From contig CAXXKT010000001.1 of the NCBI GenBank assembly GCA_963662405.2, positions 224,001-288,000 of the forward strand: 64,000 nt of DNA, written 5' to 3'. Made by a program: the position numbers. Below, piece after piece: positions 24,001-45,000 of the stretch. This DNA comes from Syntrophales bacterium (GTDB lineage: Bacteria; Desulfobacterota; Syntrophia; Syntrophales; UBA2210). Position 1 is the first letter of the stretch. Every line of letters begins with the position of its first letter.

Positions 24001-27000
24001 ATGCGCACCGGGAAGGCCGATGCGAACAGACGACGAGTATGTCAGAAACGGGGTAGTGGAAATATTTATGGAAGTTGAGCCCCTTGCTGGCAGAAGACAT
24101 GTGGCGATCACGGAACATCGAACAAGAAAGGATTGGGCGATGCAGACCAGGCAGATGCTTGATGAACGCTATCCCAGCGCCCTCAAGGTTCGTCTGGTCA
24201 TGGACAACCTGAACACCCATACAATCGCCTCACTCTACGAAACATTCAAACCCGGGGAAGCCAGGCGTTTAGCGGAACGACTCGATATCCATTATACGCC
24301 TAAACACGGAAGCTGGCTGAATATGGCAGAGATCGAGCTCAGCGCCCTGAAAGGACAATGCCTTAATCGCCGGATTCCCGACATAACGACCATGCGAACC
24401 GAAGTGGCCGCATGGGAAAAAGATCGAAACAACAGCGCGAAAAACATTGTATGGCAATTTACTACTCCTGATGCTCGCATTAAGTTGAAGCGCCTTTATC
24501 CGAAGCTATAAACGTTACATGGTACTAGTATCTTTAACTCATTGTTTTTCTAGAAAATCACCAATTTTTTCAAAATGTATTTTTTCCATTTTTTCGATTG
24601 TTTTTTTCCCTTCGTCAATTTGTTCATCACTTACGTCACACTTTGAGAGTTTATATAACCACCCTCTGGCAATAATTTCAGAGGAAAGCCTTGAGATATA
24701 GAACGATTCTGTAACATCGAGTAATTTATTTTTTAAACTAGCGTTTGCTATTTTATCGTTTCTTTGTGAAAGCCATAAAAAAATATCAACGGCCTGAAGA
24801 CTCACGATCTGCTTTGACATTGCCAGTGAAAATTGTCCAAGATCGTAATCAACTTGATCAACCTGTAAGCCCAATCCACTTGAATTGTGTTCAAGCCTGA
24901 ATTTCTGAAATATTTTATGGTATTCCCTCATTGTAGAACCAAATTCTGACTGAGAATGATGAACAAAGGCTTTTGGTTTTGTATTGTTTTCTTTACAGAA
25001 TTTGTGAACAGCCTGAATTAAACTTGAAAAAGCAACCATGTTGGGAGTATGCTCCTTGTATGACTTTTTTGTTTGGCTTGCCAATAGTGTAATTTCATCA
25101 GGGTATTTAAGTGCAAAATTAAGACCTTCAGTAGCAACTTGGTGGAGTCTTTTATCAACACTTATAAGATCAAGCCGTTGCAATACGATGTTTATCACTG
25201 ATCTAATTCCAGTAAAATCATCTTTGAGATAATAATCCCAGAAATTCTTTTTGTCTTCTTCAAAAAGAAGGTCATCAAAAAGAATACATAACGTATGTCT
25301 AAAAAACTCGTGATTATACCATAACCACCGTGCACCTTTATTTTCGTAAGAGTCGAAAAGACTATCAACAAATTTCGTCACTGATAAATAAGGCTTTTCA
25401 ATGACCGTTAAGTGAAAAACCCATTTTATATTTTCGAGGAGATCTAAAAATGAAGTTGCTATTCTTTCTACAAGATGAGGTTTAATTTCGTTCGCATGAA
25501 GTCTATCTACACCCAATTCAAATTTATACTTTTCAGCAACTTCATTTAGCAAAGGTTCAGTATCAATTTCCGAGATTATTGCTCCTTGAAAGTAAAAAAG
25601 TGGCTCATTAAAAATGTGGCGTCCTGAATGCCCAGACTCATCGGCGTAAATATACATTTTTATATTCGTTTCTTATCGGATGTTAACAATTAATATACTT
25701 GGTGGGTATTTTCCAAACTTTTGTACAACCCTACTTCAATTCATGAAAAATGAAAAGCGGAAGTTTCGTCGTGAAATCAAGTACAATTGGATTTTGACCA
25801 ATGGGTATTTTGTGGTAATGAAAAATGGCAGCAGTTCAACAAATACTGTTTGAAGTAGCGCATTGCCCTGAAAATTACTGAACACTCACTTACAGGAAGG
25901 AGCAGATAATCTACATGAGCCTAAAATGTACAGCCCGAGTTGTCCTACCTTTCAACCCACATTTAATAAGGTTGACCGACAAATTGTGGTGATGACTTGT
26001 ATTTGAAGTCTCGCACATCTTTGATGAAAGCAGTTTCATAGATTTCAGAAGGAAGGTGTCTGGATTTTACGAAATCCAAATAATAAACTTTCCAGGCTTA
26101 GAGTGCTTCGGGCCGTTGCATTTGGCCTCTGCGCGGTGGTTGTGAAACATTTGAGAAATAGATGGACTTGAAAGGAGTGGCCACATGAAAAAGGGTGGCC
26201 CTCTCACAGAATCGAAAAGACCACCCATCAGGAGGGACAGCACAAGGTCAATCCAAGTACTACTCCCGGTGGTAAGAAGCGGTAATAAGAGGTGGCTCGA
26301 TCGCCTGCAAAGGGAGAGTTAAGCCTGCCCGTAATCATCCGGTCCACCTTTTCATCAATCCGCTGTTGTTGCGCCTCTCCTCTCAATAATGATTCTTTGA
26401 TCCAGACGACATTTGCCGTCACGTCTTTCTTGACGCCGTCGATCCGGACTTCGTGCTGGGCGGAAAGGCCGTACACCATGTATTCCTCAGGCCGCATGCA
26501 GGAGAGAGATCTCCCGCGTTATTCAATCGCCCGATCGCGTAATGCCCGGAGTTTTTGCTCCCCACCCCGTCCACTGTCCGGGCCTATAGCCCTTTGAGAA
26601 GGTTTCTTATGTAAGGCGGCGAGGGGGTGGCGACGGCGGAGGTCCTTTCGGAAACGGCGACCAGTTGCCCCTGAGGGCGATCCTGTGGGCATTCTCTATC
26701 GTCGGGGCACAGCCTCTGCAGAGATAGCGCAATACTCCCCCGTTACGCCCATGGTACGGACCCGTTACGAACGACCACCCCCATGTTCGCCGAAACTCCT
26801 GTTTGCACACAACGCACTGACGCCAGAACAACAGGGGGAACCTCACGGAGATGCCGTGCTCATATCGTTCCTTGGGTTCACGCTTCACCTTTTTCCCCTC
26901 CTTTTGTCCTCTTTTTCGTTGCCAGCTCGGGACGCGTGTTCTTTCTGTTGCCTCAGATAGTGTGTCGGCATCCTGAGTGAGGGCCGCCGCGATCACTTCA

Positions 27001-42000: not shown

Positions 42001-45000
42001 GCGAGGCCAGGCAACTGGTTGTTGCTTCTTGTTCTGATGCTTATTTTCGCGTGAAACAATACAAAATCGAGAATGTTCTTTGGGCAGAGGATAGCTCAGG
42101 AAAAAGGATTACGGCCAAAGATGATGTCCAGGCTTTTGAATCTGCCTTCCCAAGATTTGAAACGCTTAGAGAGTATGCTGATTTATTAACGTTCTTTGCA
42201 GAATACCCCGCGGCTTGCCGCGGGGATGAATGCATGCCTTGCCCAGGGGGTTATAAAGGGGGAGTGGAGCATCCCCCTTATCCACATAGGCCCTTGTGTG
42301 ACAATATGATATAAGATCGTCATGACAATTCAGCGAACGAGTCATGCGGTCTACGACACGAGTTATCATCTGGTATGGTGTCCGAAATACCGTAAGAAGG
42401 TTTTTGAGCGGGCGGATCTTCGGGAACGAGCGGGACAACTTATCCGAGAGATCAGCGAGGATTATGGATTTGACGTAATCGAGATGGAAATATCTATAGA
42501 GCATGTGCATTTGTTTTTGTCCTTTCCACCGAGCAGATCGATAGGAGAAGTTGTCAGAATCATTAAGAGTAAGAGTGCGCGGAGTTTGTTCCGCGAGTTC
42601 CCATGGTTGAAGAAGAAACTTTGGTCTGGGGAATTGTGGGAAGACGGGTATTTTGCGCGGACCGTCGGGGACCGTATGACTCGTGCCGTAATTGAACAGT
42701 ATGTTGCGCATCATAGAGACCTTACACAAGGGCCTGCGCAGCTTGATTTCAAGCTGCGCTAAAGATGCCCCGCGGCTTGCCGCGGGGAGCTTCACTAAAT
42801 AACGAACTTAAAAATGCAGGTTGGCATGTCCACCAGAGCAATGATTCATTTGGAGTTGGCACTTACTTCAAGAACGGAAAACCAAAAAAAACACCAAGCA
42901 TAGCCGTCAGCTACTTTGATCGAACCACAGATCATATGTGGGATTCTGAAAAGGACGAACTTGTTATTGTTGAAAGAGAGCCGACTGGTCGTGAGCGCCC
43001 ATGGCGAGTTGACAGTTGGCGATTCAAATAAGTCAAATCTTTTAAATTATTTTATTCGGCAATGGAGCAGTTCGTGGAAGAGATTAGAGCAAGTGATCCG
43101 CAACAAGCCAAAGACATGTTTACTGGACATTGACATCCCATACGCATGTGAGGCCGGTGCAGAACACATGTTTTTATGATATTCCATCGGTGCTTTGGGA
43201 TCAGGAATAAGTTGAATGATTAGAAAACACGGGAAGGGTCACAATGTCAGTCAGGCAAATTGCCGAAAGTAAATTCATAATCGATTATTACCCTGACGGG
43301 CGGAAGGGGAAACGGGTTAGGAAGGTCTACACGCTCCCATCCCGCGAAATCGCGGAAACCATAGAGCGGGATCTCGTATCTCTGAACAAAAAGAGCAACC
43401 CCCTTCAGTCGTCAGACCTGGCCACCATCGATAGCCTGTTTCCGGCTTATCTTAAGTGGTTCGCAAAACACCGGGCGGCCAGCACGTTACTAGACGTTGA
43501 GAACACCTACACAAAACACATATCCCGGATCATGGGATCTGTAAAAGTGCATGACCTCAAAACCACGCATATCAGTCTATACAAGAACATCAGGGGGGCA
43601 GAAAAGGCGATCCGAGGACACAATCGGAAGGGTGCGCCCGTACAAAAAACAACCTACGTATCAAATCGCACAATCATGAAAGAGCTCTCCTATTTCTCGG
43701 GGTTCCTTCGGTGGTGTCGGAGAGAAATGGAACTTGATATCAAGCCGATCCACATTGAACAACTCCCCCACGCACGGCCGAAGCCGATAGTGCTGTCACC
43801 GGAAGAAGTGGGGGCAATCCTCAAAAGCCTCGACACGACACCGAGGGCCGTGGTTTTGCTTCTCTATACCATGGGACTCAGATTATCCGAAGCGATAGGA
43901 CTGAAGTGGGAAAACGTTGACTTTGCAAACTCAGTTTTGCGGGTAATCCAAAAAGGAGGGGAGTGGAAGGTATTACCTATGAACACGTGGGTTGTCAACT
44001 CTCTAAAGAAACTTCCACGAACGGGAGCACATGTGTTTCATAATCCAAAAACAGGAAAGCCGATATACAACATAAGAAAGCCCCTCGAAAAGGCGCGCCG
44101 GGCGGCCGGGATAGAAAAGAAAGTAAACCATCATCTCTTCAGGCACTCCATAGCTACACACCTTATGGGGCGCAATGTTCAGACCCGGCTCATTCAGGAA
44201 TACCTTGGACACGCGGAGATTGATTCAACAGATTGGTACATGCACATCAATATGAAACTCTTGGGAGATGCGACCAAGGGCGCCTTTGATTTCATGGAGA
44301 ATATCCCGGAGCTCAACGAGCAGGTGACTACACCATGACATATATTATCAATAGGTTGCGAAGGTAAATGACTACATAAACGCAAATACACACGTATTAT
44401 CAAGCATTATTGTGGGATTCCTAATCCGTGTGTCGTGCGTTCGAATCGCACCGGGGGTACCATCTTCTCCCTGCGAGAGGTTCCCTTCCCCGGTTCTTAT
44501 TTTTTTCTGAACATTTCATGGAATCAGATTGGACGTTTCTTTAAAGATCCGGGCTTTCAGCGCCCGGATTCGCCCGCTTCCTCCCGGATGATCATCTCAG
44601 AAACCATCCTTCATTCAGCTGGTTGCAACTACTTTTCCCCGAATCCCCTGTATGGCACGCTTCTTTCATTACCAGAAGGCAAAAGAAACAAACAAAAGGG
44701 ACTACCAAAAGGAGGATATAATCATGAAACGGACAGTGCAGACAATCATCATGGCGGCCTTCGTGGTGCTCGTCACCGCTTCCTTCGGCTATGCCGAGTA
44801 TACCGCAACCAACGCGGCGGGTTTCCCCTATTTCCATCTCGGATGCCTCATCGTCGGCGGGATGATCATCACCTCGCTCAAACACAAATACACGAAACTG
44901 TATCTCAGCGAGGCGGTCGGCTCCTTCGCGCTCTACGCCGTCCTGGTGGCCCTCTTCACGGCCCCGGTCGTGGGTGCGCTCAAGGGCATCGTCAGCTAGA

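What a model noticed while it worked through the whole genome (the two positions that open the first line are those of the whole stretch)
26492..44400. One 31-kb prophage and three 17-kb derivatives that end at the same point after the terminase gene and lack all virion g [...]
A complete prophage (C1:2346635-2378000; integrase, repressor, P4-type primase, two methylases, large terminase, then portal, capsid and tail genes g02227-g02246) has three shorter relatives (C1:250492-268400, C1:1956917-1973700, C1:2650806-2668077). They share its replication-methylase-terminase block at 91-96% identity with all long orfs intact, stop at the same position 270 nt after the terminase gene, share a further 450-600 bp with each other but not with the prophage, and carry different integrase and repressor modules at different sites. 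A common truncated ancestor that has since spread is the simplest reading: a satellite-like element that keeps its own terminase and would borrow cap [...]
Evidence so far: Self-comparison blocks and identities; gene tables of the four copies: primase 802-808 aa, terminase 636-640 aa, methylases 406 and 441-460 aa in each; the four terminases are 94-100% identical as proteins. Homology of the prophage to the short copies ends at 2359896 = 251091; 250492-251091 matches only the other short copies (93% and 89%). A fifth, decayed copy lies on C2:347656-352015.
(Added by a program. Inside this text positions count along the whole contig: contig position 224,001 is position 1 of the stretch shown here. 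"Call 12" and the like, gene names such as g00115 and contig names such as C1 are that model's own, and its searches are not shown. The text may have been shortened before it was handed on; [...] marks where a part breaks off. The agent that wrote the report below was given it as the finding of a first reader that could run no searches.)

Follow-up and report, generated by a model that had tools for sequence, protein, structure and literature searches.

The report
Virion-less phage derivatives carrying defence cargo
Three relatives of a resident prophage have lost every gene for building virus particles but keep their DNA-packaging enzyme, and each is really a 39-42 kb insertion at a tRNA gene whose other half is filled with anti-phage defence genes, so they probably spread by borrowing the intact prophage's capsids.

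Summary
The homology blocks, the shared breakpoint and the absence of virion genes are real. The boundaries are not. Each "17-kb derivative" is the phage-derived half of a larger unit bounded by exact 45-48-nt repeats of a tRNA 3' end.

- **Unit sizes:** A 39,899 bp at tRNA-Arg(CCT), B 38,767 bp at tRNA-Thr, C 41,655 bp at tRNA-Arg(TCT). The prophage P is 42,863 bp at tRNA-Met.
- **Empty sites:** same-genus genomes have them for A and for P.
- **Other half:** 20-24 kb of low-GC cargo, including a type II restriction-modification pair, a ThsB-like TIR protein, an AriA/OLD-like ATPase and GajB.
- **Breakpoint:** P and the short forms diverge at the end of an intact small gene, a module boundary. 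The shared deletion scar lies further on, as a 24-residue remnant of a P late gene. A also keeps a truncated late gene and the late terminator.
- **Selection:** terminase, primase and a short-form-specific zinc-ribbon gene show dN/dS of 0.06-0.26. The copies are mosaic with P.
- **Contrast:** a fifth copy is truly decayed.

Best reading: helper-dependent derivatives of a lambda-type phage from one ancestral deletion, kept near helper genome length. Mobilisation itself is not shown. It is a new variant of a known kind.

The parts
4487..4563 (+). tRNA-Arg(CCT). Its last 48 nt (4516-4563) are the attL core of element A.
   Evidence: ARAGORN and Rfam; exact 48-nt repeat at 44415-44462.
4600..8925 (.). 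att-proximal 4.3-kb segment of A, 98.8% identical to the att-proximal segment of C. It holds two TGACTACA arm-type motifs at 4603-4621, an AMP-binding enzyme at 5083-7095 (-), and a copy of a cassette encoding two small membrane proteins.
   Evidence: block 228600-232925 = 2626651-2630972; Pfam; motif: 35 occurrences in all of C1, 8 of them beside the att cores of A and C.
8926..25842 (.). Low-GC cargo (A's whole cargo half, C1:228564-250140, which also covers the 4.3-kb segment, has GC 0.438; the phage half has 0.546). Genes: XhoI-type restriction enzyme 9165-9905 (-), type II methylase 9906-11633 (-), ThsB-like TIR protein 12421-13437 (+), HD-CE/HATPase protein 13753-16194 (+), AriA/OLD-like ATPase 16276-18087 (+), 773-aa protein with a Ppl-like C-terminus 18382-20703 (+), DUF5677 21971-22999 (+), DUF3800 24539-25657 (-).
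   Evidence: Pfam, PADLOC, GC content. No integrase in this half. No internal att-like copy above background.
25843..26015 (+). About 170-nt piece of a dispersed repeat. It sits at the same relative place in A, B and C and at about 6 other sites in the genome.
26140..26562 (-). Vestiges of the late operon: a terminator hairpin plus the P43-like stretch (26140-26238), a 5'-truncated homolog of P's 114-aa late protein that lacks its N-terminal hydrophobic segment (26285-26461), and a 24-33-residue remnant of P's 169-aa late protein (26491-26562).
   Evidence: tblastx and tblastn, alignment, translations.
26607..26888 (-). Zinc-ribbon gene (93 aa, four invariant Cys, Pro-rich tail). Present in A, B and C, absent from P.
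   Evidence: (dN/dS 0.11-0.15, dS up to 0.35).
27032..27346 (-). Small ORF after TerL (104 aa), intact in all four copies. Homology to P ends about 20 codons before its stop. No Pfam or PHROG family matched.
27358..29280 (-). Large terminase, lambda gpA type (ATPase and nuclease domains).
   Evidence: Pfam PF05876 and PF20454, phrog_15; dN/dS 0.09-0.17.
29277..30176 (-). Probable small terminase (299 aa).
   Evidence: Weak phrog_57 match: E = 5e-6 here, 1.3e-8 for the P copy. Position directly upstream of TerL.
30177..30318 (-). Conserved, possibly structured intergenic element upstream of the terminase genes. A candidate cos or leader region. Tandemly duplicated in B and C.
   Evidence: No Rfam match.
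30319..31644 (-). ParB-domain N6/N4 DNA methylase (441 aa core).
33097..35505 (-). Primase-helicase (zinc ribbon, Toprim, D5_N, DUF5906, Pox_D5).
   Evidence: dN/dS 0.11-0.15.
35735..37000 (-). Second N6/N4 methylase (421 aa), present only in the three short forms, 98.8-99.3% identical among them.
40703..41743 (.). Immunity region: ribbon-helix-helix protein (40703-40912, -), repressor-like protein (40905-41204, -), and a divergent CI-type repressor without an S24 peptidase domain (41225-41743, +).
   Evidence: By contrast, P and B have CI with S24.
42322..42762 (+). IS200-type Y1 transposase inserted in A.
43244..44338 (+). Tyrosine integrase of A.
44415..44462 (+). attR core, an exact copy of the 3' 48 nt of tRNA-Arg(CCT). 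Two TGACTACA motifs lie at 44325-44376.
   Evidence: Empty site in G254:C16.

Best explanation
A, B and C are three members of one lineage of virion-less derivatives of a lambda-type (gpA terminase) temperate phage related to the co-resident prophage P.

Shown:
- Each is a single unit of 38.8-41.7 kb at a tRNA gene, bounded by exact 45-48-nt repeats of the tRNA 3' end. For A it is shown as one insertion, by an empty site in a same-genus genome.
- One half is phage-derived: integrase, immunity, primase-helicase, two methylases, probable TerS, TerL, a small ORF and a zinc-ribbon gene.
- The other half (20-24 kb) is variable low-GC cargo that includes anti-phage systems.
- All three share one deletion scar, so the roughly 17-kb morphogenesis block (gpW to tail fibres) was lost once.

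Inferred:
- The lineage then diversified by exchanging integrase/immunity modules and cargo, and it kept recombining with P-like phages.
- After induction (B and P both carry LexA-like CI repressors) each element excises at its att sites and replicates with its own primase-helicase.
- Its own terminase then cuts its concatemers at a cos site, probably the conserved element upstream of TerS. The DNA is packed into proheads, joined to tails and released by lysis, all supplied by P or a P-like phage.
- Unit lengths of 90-97% of P's fit a cos-type packaging window without capsid resizing.
For: 1. Boundaries.
- Exact tRNA-derived repeats flank each unit.
- G254:C16 has an empty site for A. G253:C6 and G255:C1 have empty sites for P.
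- No internal att-like copy scores above a control region in any of the 4 units.
- The cargo halves contain none of the genome's 22 integrase matches.

2. The cargo end belongs to the integrase module.
- TGACTACA occurs 35 times in the 2.79-Mb contig C1. Two copies flank the att core on each side in both A and C (8 of the 35).
- A and C share the att-proximal 4.3 kb at 98.8% identity although they sit at different tRNA genes.

3. Single origin and derivation from a full phage: the shared junction and the remnant of P's 169-aa late gene. A also keeps a truncated P42-like gene and the late terminator.

4. Selection.
- dN/dS: TerL 0.09-0.17, probable TerS 0.15-0.26, primase 0.11-0.15, ParB-methylase 0.06-0.20.
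- The short-form-specific zinc-ribbon gene has dN/dS 0.11-0.15 at dS up to 0.35.
- The fifth copy on C2 shows what decay looks like here: TerL is gone, the primase has lost residues 269-580, and TerS is cut to residues 1-115.

5. Helper availability: P alone has the lambda-family portal, the protease-capsid fusion and the tape measure. The last 670 nt before the module boundary (TerL C-terminus plus the small ORF) are 99.8-100% identical between P, B and C.

6. Lengths: 42,863 (P), 39,899, 38,767 and 41,655 bp. The short forms carry about twice P's cargo (20-24 kb against 11 kb).
Against: - No excision, circle or particle data. The 4 public runs laid are contigs only and show no joint at the ends.
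- The copies are mosaic with P: the closest pair changes among 17 windows of 500 nt. Gene conversion from a functional phage could therefore keep ORFs intact and mimic purifying selection.
- The short form was found in this genome only. The zinc-ribbon gene matched 3 of 339 genomes of the order, counting this genome. The other two matches are weak (E 2.6e-4 and 7.5e-4, with stops inside).
- The closest TerL relatives elsewhere are 60-73% identical.
- The length match involves only three elements, and the lambda-style packaging window is recalled, not measured for this phage.
- The cos site is not identified, and TerS rests on a weak PHROG match.
- B's integrase is separated from its tRNA by about 0.8 kb that holds a Gp49-like toxin gene and a duplicated integrase 3' end.
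- B's two flanks lie on different contigs in relatives, so no empty site was shown for B.
- A carries an IS200-type insertion, and C's GajA is only a fragment, so some decay is present.
Confidence: 0.55

Rival explanations
1. Inert defective prophages. A single deletion derivative was fixed as a set of immobile islands that the host keeps for their defence cargo. The phage genes look intact only because the copies are young or are repeatedly overwritten by gene conversion from P.
For: - Mosaic identity with P, including 99.8-100% identity of B and C to P next to the boundary.
- A 1.5-kb segment (the 421-aa methylase plus a 77-aa ORF) is nearly identical in A, B and C, with dS 0.01-0.03 against about 0.15 in the flanks.
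- IS200-type insertion in A and a GajA fragment in C.
- No excision joint in the contig data.
- The short form is seen in no other genome.
Against: - The three copies sit at three different tRNA genes with different integrase and immunity modules and exact att repeats. That needs movement as an element, not duplication.
- The short-form-specific zinc-ribbon gene cannot be refreshed from P, yet it has dN/dS 0.11-0.15 at dS 0.35.
- A truly decayed copy exists in the same genome for contrast.
Confidence: 0.3
2. One reading: the mobile unit is only the 17-18 kb phage half, a small satellite. The 20-24 kb cargo is a separate, older island lying in tandem at the same tRNA.
For: - Tandem arrays do occur here. 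A 19.2-kb element sits next to C between the second and third copies of the same 48-nt att.
- P's 11-kb cargo contains an integrase fragment at C1:2340143-2340280.
- Cargo GC (0.44-0.48) differs from the phage halves (0.55).
Against: - No att-like copy lies between the halves.
- The cargo halves have no integrase.
- Arm-type motifs sit on the cargo side of the att core in A and C.
- A and C share the att-proximal 4.3 kb at two different tRNA genes.
- The phage half has no att repeat of its own at the terminase end.
Confidence: 0.1
3. Domesticated interference or transfer device. The host, or the cargo, keeps the replication and terminase genes to sabotage P-like phages by competing for proheads or cutting at cos, or to drive transfer of the defence cargo. 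The element itself would not be a self-propagating parasite.
For: - Defence genes make up much of the units.
- The terminase is nearly identical to P's at its C-terminus in B and C.
- Satellites and prophages are known carriers of defence hotspots (PMC9122126, search listing and abstract only).
Against: - This is not distinguishable from the satellite reading with sequence alone.
- An intact integrase, exact att sites and separate immunity modules point to a mobile life of the whole unit.
Confidence: 0.1

Closest known systems
Defective lambdoid prophages of E. coli O157 Sakai that are packaged and transferred with help from co-resident prophages (Asadulghani et al. 2009, PMC2669165; abstract and passages read)
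   Same: Prophages that lack head and tail functions sit beside related intact prophages with compatible virion genes. Recombination occurs among the pool. The mechanism is complementation in trans.
   Different: Here the whole morphogenesis block is gone through one shared deletion, present in three diverged copies. The terminase is retained under selection. An equivalent length of defence cargo is present. No experiment exists for this genome.
Phage satellites: P4-like, PICI, cfPICI, PLE (de Sousa et al. 2023, PMC10085698; passages read)
   Same: Integrase, own regulator, own primase-type replication, no virion genes, presumed dependence on a helper, and carriage of defence genes.
   Different: Size is 39-42 kb, against a median of 9.5 kb for PICI in that paper. 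Both TerS and TerL are present without any capsid, portal or adaptor gene; that paper lists terL as a cfPICI component alongside capsid and connector genes. No capsid-size remodelling gene was recognised. The elements are closely related to their putative helper (92-100% nt), which is not typical of satellites.
Defective specialised transducing genomes of lambda (lambda dgal type; recalled, no paper read)
   Same: Late genes are replaced by foreign DNA lying between the remaining phage genes and att. The genome depends on a helper. Genome length is held within the cos packaging window.
   Different: The substituted DNA is not the chromosome flank of the att site. The empty site in G254 shows that none of it is native there, and A and C share 4.3 kb of it at different sites. 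The elements are old and diversified, not one-off products.
PhiAH14b/PhiAH14a of Pseudomonas sp. ANT_H14 (PMC4936722; abstract and passages read)
   Same: A co-induced prophage without structural genes is packed into the capsids of a complete co-resident prophage without capsid resizing.
   Different: AH14b is 16.8 kb against a 55-kb helper, and packaging there is headful. In the passages read, only a terminase of AH14a is described.

Membership tests
Phage satellite (generic) | No virion structural genes | tested here: met
   No portal, capsid, tape-measure or tail family appears in A's 39.9 kb by Pfam, PHROGs or PADLOC. Genome-wide, the only lambda-family portal and the only tape measure are in P. 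Several ORFs have no family match.
Phage satellite (generic) | Integrase with intact attachment sites | tested here: met
   Integrases of 339-373 aa. Exact att repeats of 45-48 nt. Empty site for A.
Phage satellite (generic) | Mobilised by, and dependent on, a helper phage | not testable with these tools
   Only contig-level public runs are held, and they show no joints.
PICI | Small size (median 9.5 kb; few of 20-28 kb) with TerS or cos only, and no other phage packaging or structural genes (PMC10085698, passages) | tested here: not met
   Units are 38.8-41.7 kb. A full gpA-type TerL is present.
cfPICI | Own capsid, head-tail adaptor/connector and TerL (PMC10085698, passages) | tested here: not met
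   TerL is present, but no capsid, portal or connector family was found.
P4-like satellite | P4 alpha-type primase together with psu, delta and sid, and a cos site (component list recalled) | tested here: inconclusive
   The primase has D5_N, DUF5906 and Pox_D5 domains. No psu, sid or delta family was reported by Pfam or PHROGs, but they were not searched with dedicated profiles.
Defective prophage complemented by a co-resident prophage (O157 Sakai type) | Loss of morphogenetic genes, plus a related intact prophage in the same cell | tested here: met
   P shares 92-100% nt identity over the 8.4-kb primase-to-terminase block.
Lambda dgal-type transducing genome | The substituted DNA is the chromosomal flank of the integration site | tested here: not met
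   G254 joins tRNA-Arg directly to A's right flank. The att-proximal 4.3 kb is shared by A and C at different tRNA genes.

The most novel reading that the evidence does not exclude
A long-lived lineage of full-length "cargo phages". These are helper-dependent elements that kept att/int, immunity, replication and a complete cos terminase. They swapped the roughly 17-kb virion module for 20-24 kb of exchangeable defence genes, possibly assembled at repeated docking elements. Unit length stays at 90-97% of the helper's, so they fit unmodified helper capsids. That would be a satellite strategy based on length mimicry and self-packaging, not on capsid resizing or terminase redirection.
Probability: 0.33. 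Interest if true: 0.8.

Novelty: new variant of a known kind. Interest (0 to 1): 0.62.

Why it matters
If these units are mobilised, they show a route from temperate phage to satellite that the described families (P4-like, PICI, cfPICI, PLE) do not cover. The route is to lose the whole particle-building module, keep the packaging enzyme, and refill the freed space with defence genes up to the helper's genome length. That would make such elements large-capacity vehicles for anti-phage systems. Tools tuned to small satellites or to complete prophages would miss them.

There is also a practical lesson. Prophage remnants that "end after the terminase" should be re-delimited by tRNA-derived repeats before they are called short.

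Tried and rejected
- **Sequencing runs.** One search listed 5 runs, none on record as RNA. The 4 runs laid are Logan contigs only. They show no joint between the element ends, and depth is uninformative because the copies collapse.
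Nothing of 12 nt or more was found. The repeats lay about 20 kb further out.
- **Zinc-ribbon gene as a terminase mimic.**
  - It gave a weak Pfam hit to the end of GpA_ATPase (E = 0.08) and no BLASTP support against TerL.
  - It belongs to a family of small proteins with 293 representatives at E <= 1e-3.
  - Of 12 related IMG/VR loci found, I annotated 10. Neighbours with a PHROG family were mostly DNA-metabolism or replication genes, and in 2 loci TerL and portal lie just downstream.
  - I therefore dropped the idea of a satellite-specific packaging factor.
- **Searches with the zinc-ribbon protein.** No match in the phages collection or in metagenome contigs. The first context search failed because the 40-sequence alignment was too diverse. 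A 9-sequence alignment worked.
- **Small ORF after TerL as an HTH_17 excisionase.** Positional counterparts in L010 and L038 are HTH_17. They show no similarity to this ORF, and Pfam gives nothing. The HTH label rests on my eye only.
- **P's 169-aa late protein as an endolysin.** No Pfam family and no solved-structure relative. The idea came from a recalled motif and is not claimed.
- **Rfam.** No match in window 20000-45000 at E <= 1.
- **Short forms elsewhere.** Five distinct relatives had 4 kb or more downstream of TerL.
  - Three have a portal homolog: L009, L010, and L012 (= L037).
  - Two, L038 and L040, run into cellular-looking genes.
  - In L041 a tape-measure gene lies upstream of TerS, so those two may simply be prophage ends. 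This is unresolved.
- **Empty site for B.** Its two flanks map to different contigs in the relatives where both matched.

Full report
**What was checked first.**
- Copy A (C1:250492-264696 and onward to the integrase), copy B (C1:1956917-) and copy C (C1:2650806-) share 88.9-96.1% identity.
- Each matches the prophage P over the primase-to-terminase block at 91.7-95.3%.
- All three lose homology to P at exactly P 2359896 (A 251091, B 1957673, C 2651743).
- Pfam and PHROGs confirm, in A: a tyrosine integrase, a CI-type repressor, a primase-helicase, two N6/N4 methylases, a probable small terminase and a lambda gpA-type large terminase. No virion gene was found.
- P carries gpW, a lambda-family portal, a protease-capsid fusion, a decoration protein, neck proteins and a tape measure.
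- Genome-wide there are four gpA terminases but one lambda-family portal and one tape measure.

**The ends are elsewhere.** The reason is that the units are twice as long.
- **P:** the 48 nt at P's right end (2378467-2378514, just after the late terminator) are identical to the 3' end of tRNA-Met at 2335572-2335648.
- **A:** the last 48 nt of tRNA-Arg(CCT) (window 4487-4563) recur exactly at window 44415-44462, about 75 nt after the integrase.
- **C:** the 3' 48 nt of tRNA-Arg(TCT) occur at 2626372-2626419, again at 2668027-2668074 next to C's integrase, and a third time at 2687235-2687282. The third copy delimits a further 19.2-kb element in tandem.
- **B:** 45 nt of tRNA-Thr(CGT) (1974542-1974586) recur exactly at 1935775-1935819.
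- **Unit lengths, att to att:** P 42,863 bp; A 39,899; C 41,655; B 38,767.

Empty sites in same-genus genomes confirm two of these insertions.
- In G254, contig C16 joins the tRNA-Arg directly to A's right flank through the 48-nt core.
- G253:C6 and G255:C1 do the same for P.
- For B, the two flanks lie on different contigs in relatives, so no empty site was shown.

**One unit or two in tandem?** Four observations favour one unit.
- No att-like copy inside any of the four units scores above a control region.
- None of the genome's 22 integrase matches lies in the cargo halves.
- The octamer TGACTACA occurs 35 times in the 2.79-Mb contig. Two copies lie on each side of the att core in both A and C. 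This is the layout of integrase arm-type sites, so the cargo-side end belongs to the integrase module.
- A and C sit at different tRNA genes yet share their att-proximal 4.3 kb at 98.8% identity.

**What lies at the shared breakpoint.**
- Translation shows that the break with P falls about 20 codons before the stop of a small ORF (104 aa in A). That ORF follows TerL and is intact in all four copies.
- Identity between P, B and C is 99.8-100% in the 670 nt before the break, then drops to nothing. This is a module boundary, not a deletion end.
- After the break, P has about 360 nt of non-coding DNA and then gpW.
- The short forms instead have a 93-aa zinc-ribbon gene, then about 110 conserved non-coding bases. 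Those bases contain a 24-33-residue remnant of P's 169-aa late protein, with E = 7e-8 (B) and 9e-5 (A) against the six-frame genome.
- That remnant is the shared deletion scar.
- A alone continues with a 5'-truncated homolog of P's 114-aa late protein, lacking its hydrophobic N-terminus, and with the late-operon terminator.
- The short forms therefore descend from a complete phage by one loss of the gpW-to-tail block.

**The other half.** The 20-24 kb between the late-gene vestiges and the tRNA has GC 0.44-0.48, against 0.55 for the phage halves. Its contents:
- **A:** XhoI-type restriction enzyme and methylase, a ThsB-like TIR protein (370 bits), an HD-CE/HATPase protein, an AriA/OLD-like ATPase, DUF5677 and DUF3800.
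- **C:** AbiEi, a 1303-aa LmuB-like SMC protein, a GajA fragment with GajB (615 bits), and PDC-M45B/C.
- **B:** HU, a non-specific endonuclease, HD-GYP sensors and a TIR protein.
- **P:** its 11-kb counterpart lies between the tRNA and the integrase and carries PD-Lambda-5 A and B.

**Evolution.**
- Pairwise dN/dS is 0.09-0.17 for TerL, 0.15-0.26 for the probable TerS, 0.11-0.15 for the primase and 0.06-0.20 for the ParB-methylase.
- For the zinc-ribbon gene, which P lacks, dN/dS is 0.11-0.15 with dS up to 0.35.
- The relationships are mosaic. Among 17 windows of 500 nt the closest pair is A-P in 7, and other pairs in the rest.
- The methylase found only in the short forms is nearly identical among them, with dS 0.01-0.02.
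- Recombination among the co-resident elements is therefore ongoing. This weakens the selection argument for genes shared with P, but not for the zinc-ribbon gene.
- The fifth copy on C2 shows real decay: no TerL, TerS cut to residues 1-115, and an internal loss of about 310 residues in the primase.

**Mechanism proposed.** The shown steps are the anatomy, the att sites, the single origin, the selection and the presence of one possible helper. The inferred steps are these.
- *Induction:* B and P have CI repressors with an S24 domain. A's CI lacks it. C's repressor is unassigned.
- *Excision and replication:* each element excises at its tRNA-derived att sites and replicates with its own primase-helicase.
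- *Packaging:* its own terminase cuts at a cos site. The site is perhaps the conserved, possibly structured element upstream of TerS, which is tandemly duplicated in B and C.
- *Particles:* the DNA enters proheads, and gains tails and lysis functions, from P.
- *Length:* units of 90-97% of P's would fit a lambda-style cos window (recalled as roughly 78-105% of genome length) without capsid remodelling.

**Comparison with the known.** The nearest documented biology is the defective-prophage pool of E. coli O157 Sakai. There, prophages lacking head or tail functions are packaged and transferred with the help of co-resident lambdoid prophages (PMC2669165, abstract and passages).

The described satellite families differ (PMC10085698, passages).
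- cfPICI carry TerL together with capsid and connector genes.
- The units here have both terminase subunits, no capsid gene, and helper-like length.

PhiAH14b (PMC4936722, passages) is a 16.8-kb element that lacks structural-protein genes and is packed into its helper's unmodified capsids by a headful mechanism.

Three literature searches returned no satellite or defective prophage described with this combination. That covers only the held open-access library.

**Relatives.**
- TerL homologs elsewhere are 60-73% identical: 3 loci from genomes (two are Syntrophus MAGs), 4 from IMG/VR and 11 from metagenomes.
- Of five distinct loci with 4 kb or more downstream of TerL, three have a portal homolog.
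- In one of these three (L010), 6.4 kb of signalling genes sits between TerL and the portal. The same junction therefore accepts cargo in a full-length relative.
- Two loci (L038, L040) run into cellular-looking genes and remain unresolved.

**Limits.** Nothing here shows movement. The length argument rests on three elements and a recalled packaging rule. TerS and cos are tentative. Supplements of the cited papers were not consulted.

Noticed in passing
C1:2668075-2687234 (part in L006): A 19.2-kb integrase-bearing element lies in tandem with C, between the second and third copies of the 48-nt tRNA-Arg(TCT) att. The third copy is followed by a 96%-identical tRNA-His, so C's unit carries its own tRNA-His copy at its left end. 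Earlier notes of this scan describe this neighbour as a satellite with a sigma-54 switch and integrase-less integron arrays.
   Followed up: partly
window 11911-12427, 18158-18338, 21536-21880, 25843-26015: A dispersed repeat of about 150-350 nt with roughly 25 copies on all three contigs. In A's cargo it precedes +-strand cargo genes (the ThsB-like gene, the 773-aa gene and DUF5677). A truncated form sits at the same relative position in A, B and C. Earlier notes call such repeats orphan integron docking sites. I did not test for attC sites.
   Followed up: partly
window 30177-30318; L003:7730-8075; L005:7810-8160: A conserved element of about 130 nt upstream of the terminase genes with predicted hairpins. 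Of 34 predicted pairs, 4 have compensatory changes. It is present twice in tandem, about 70% alike, in B and C. No Rfam family matched.
   Followed up: partly
window 45895-47791: A group II intron (Rfam D1-D4 domains, 475-aa ORF) with three further copies at 99.6-99.8% identity on C1.
   Followed up: no
window 44500-45349 and 7762-8460; C1:701710, 502196, 2378805, 2629813: Six paralogous copies (81-97% identity) of a cassette encoding two small membrane proteins, the second AtpI-like. Upstream is a conserved TGGCAC-N5-TT stretch that looks like a sigma-54 promoter. One copy flanks A, one flanks P, and one lies inside each of A and C.
   Followed up: partly
window 35505-37256: The 421-aa methylase plus a 77-aa ORF and DUF3850 are nearly identical in A, B and C (dS 0-0.03), while flanking genes differ at dS of about 0.15. 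This suggests recent homogenisation among the three elements.
   Followed up: partly
L004:650-1500 (C1:1973650-1974500): Between B's integrase and tRNA-Thr lies a Gp49-like (DUF891) toxin gene and a 92%-identical duplicate of the last ~180 nt of the integrase region.
   Followed up: partly
window 23300-24529 and C1:2632809-2634038: A 1230-bp stretch with a 306-aa ORF of no known family is 100% identical, in inverted orientation, in the cargo of A and of C. It may be an unrecognised insertion sequence.
   Followed up: no
C1:2442047-2442889: An HK97-type capsid gene (PF05065) lies near an integrase at C1:2438317, with no PF04860 or PF05136 portal match nearby. It could be another prophage or a capsid-forming island.
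   Followed up: no
L010:11908-20835: In a Syntrophus MAG prophage, TerL is followed by an HTH_17 protein. Then come 6.4 kb of FIST/PAS histidine-kinase and response-regulator genes, and only then the lambda-family portal.
   Followed up: partly
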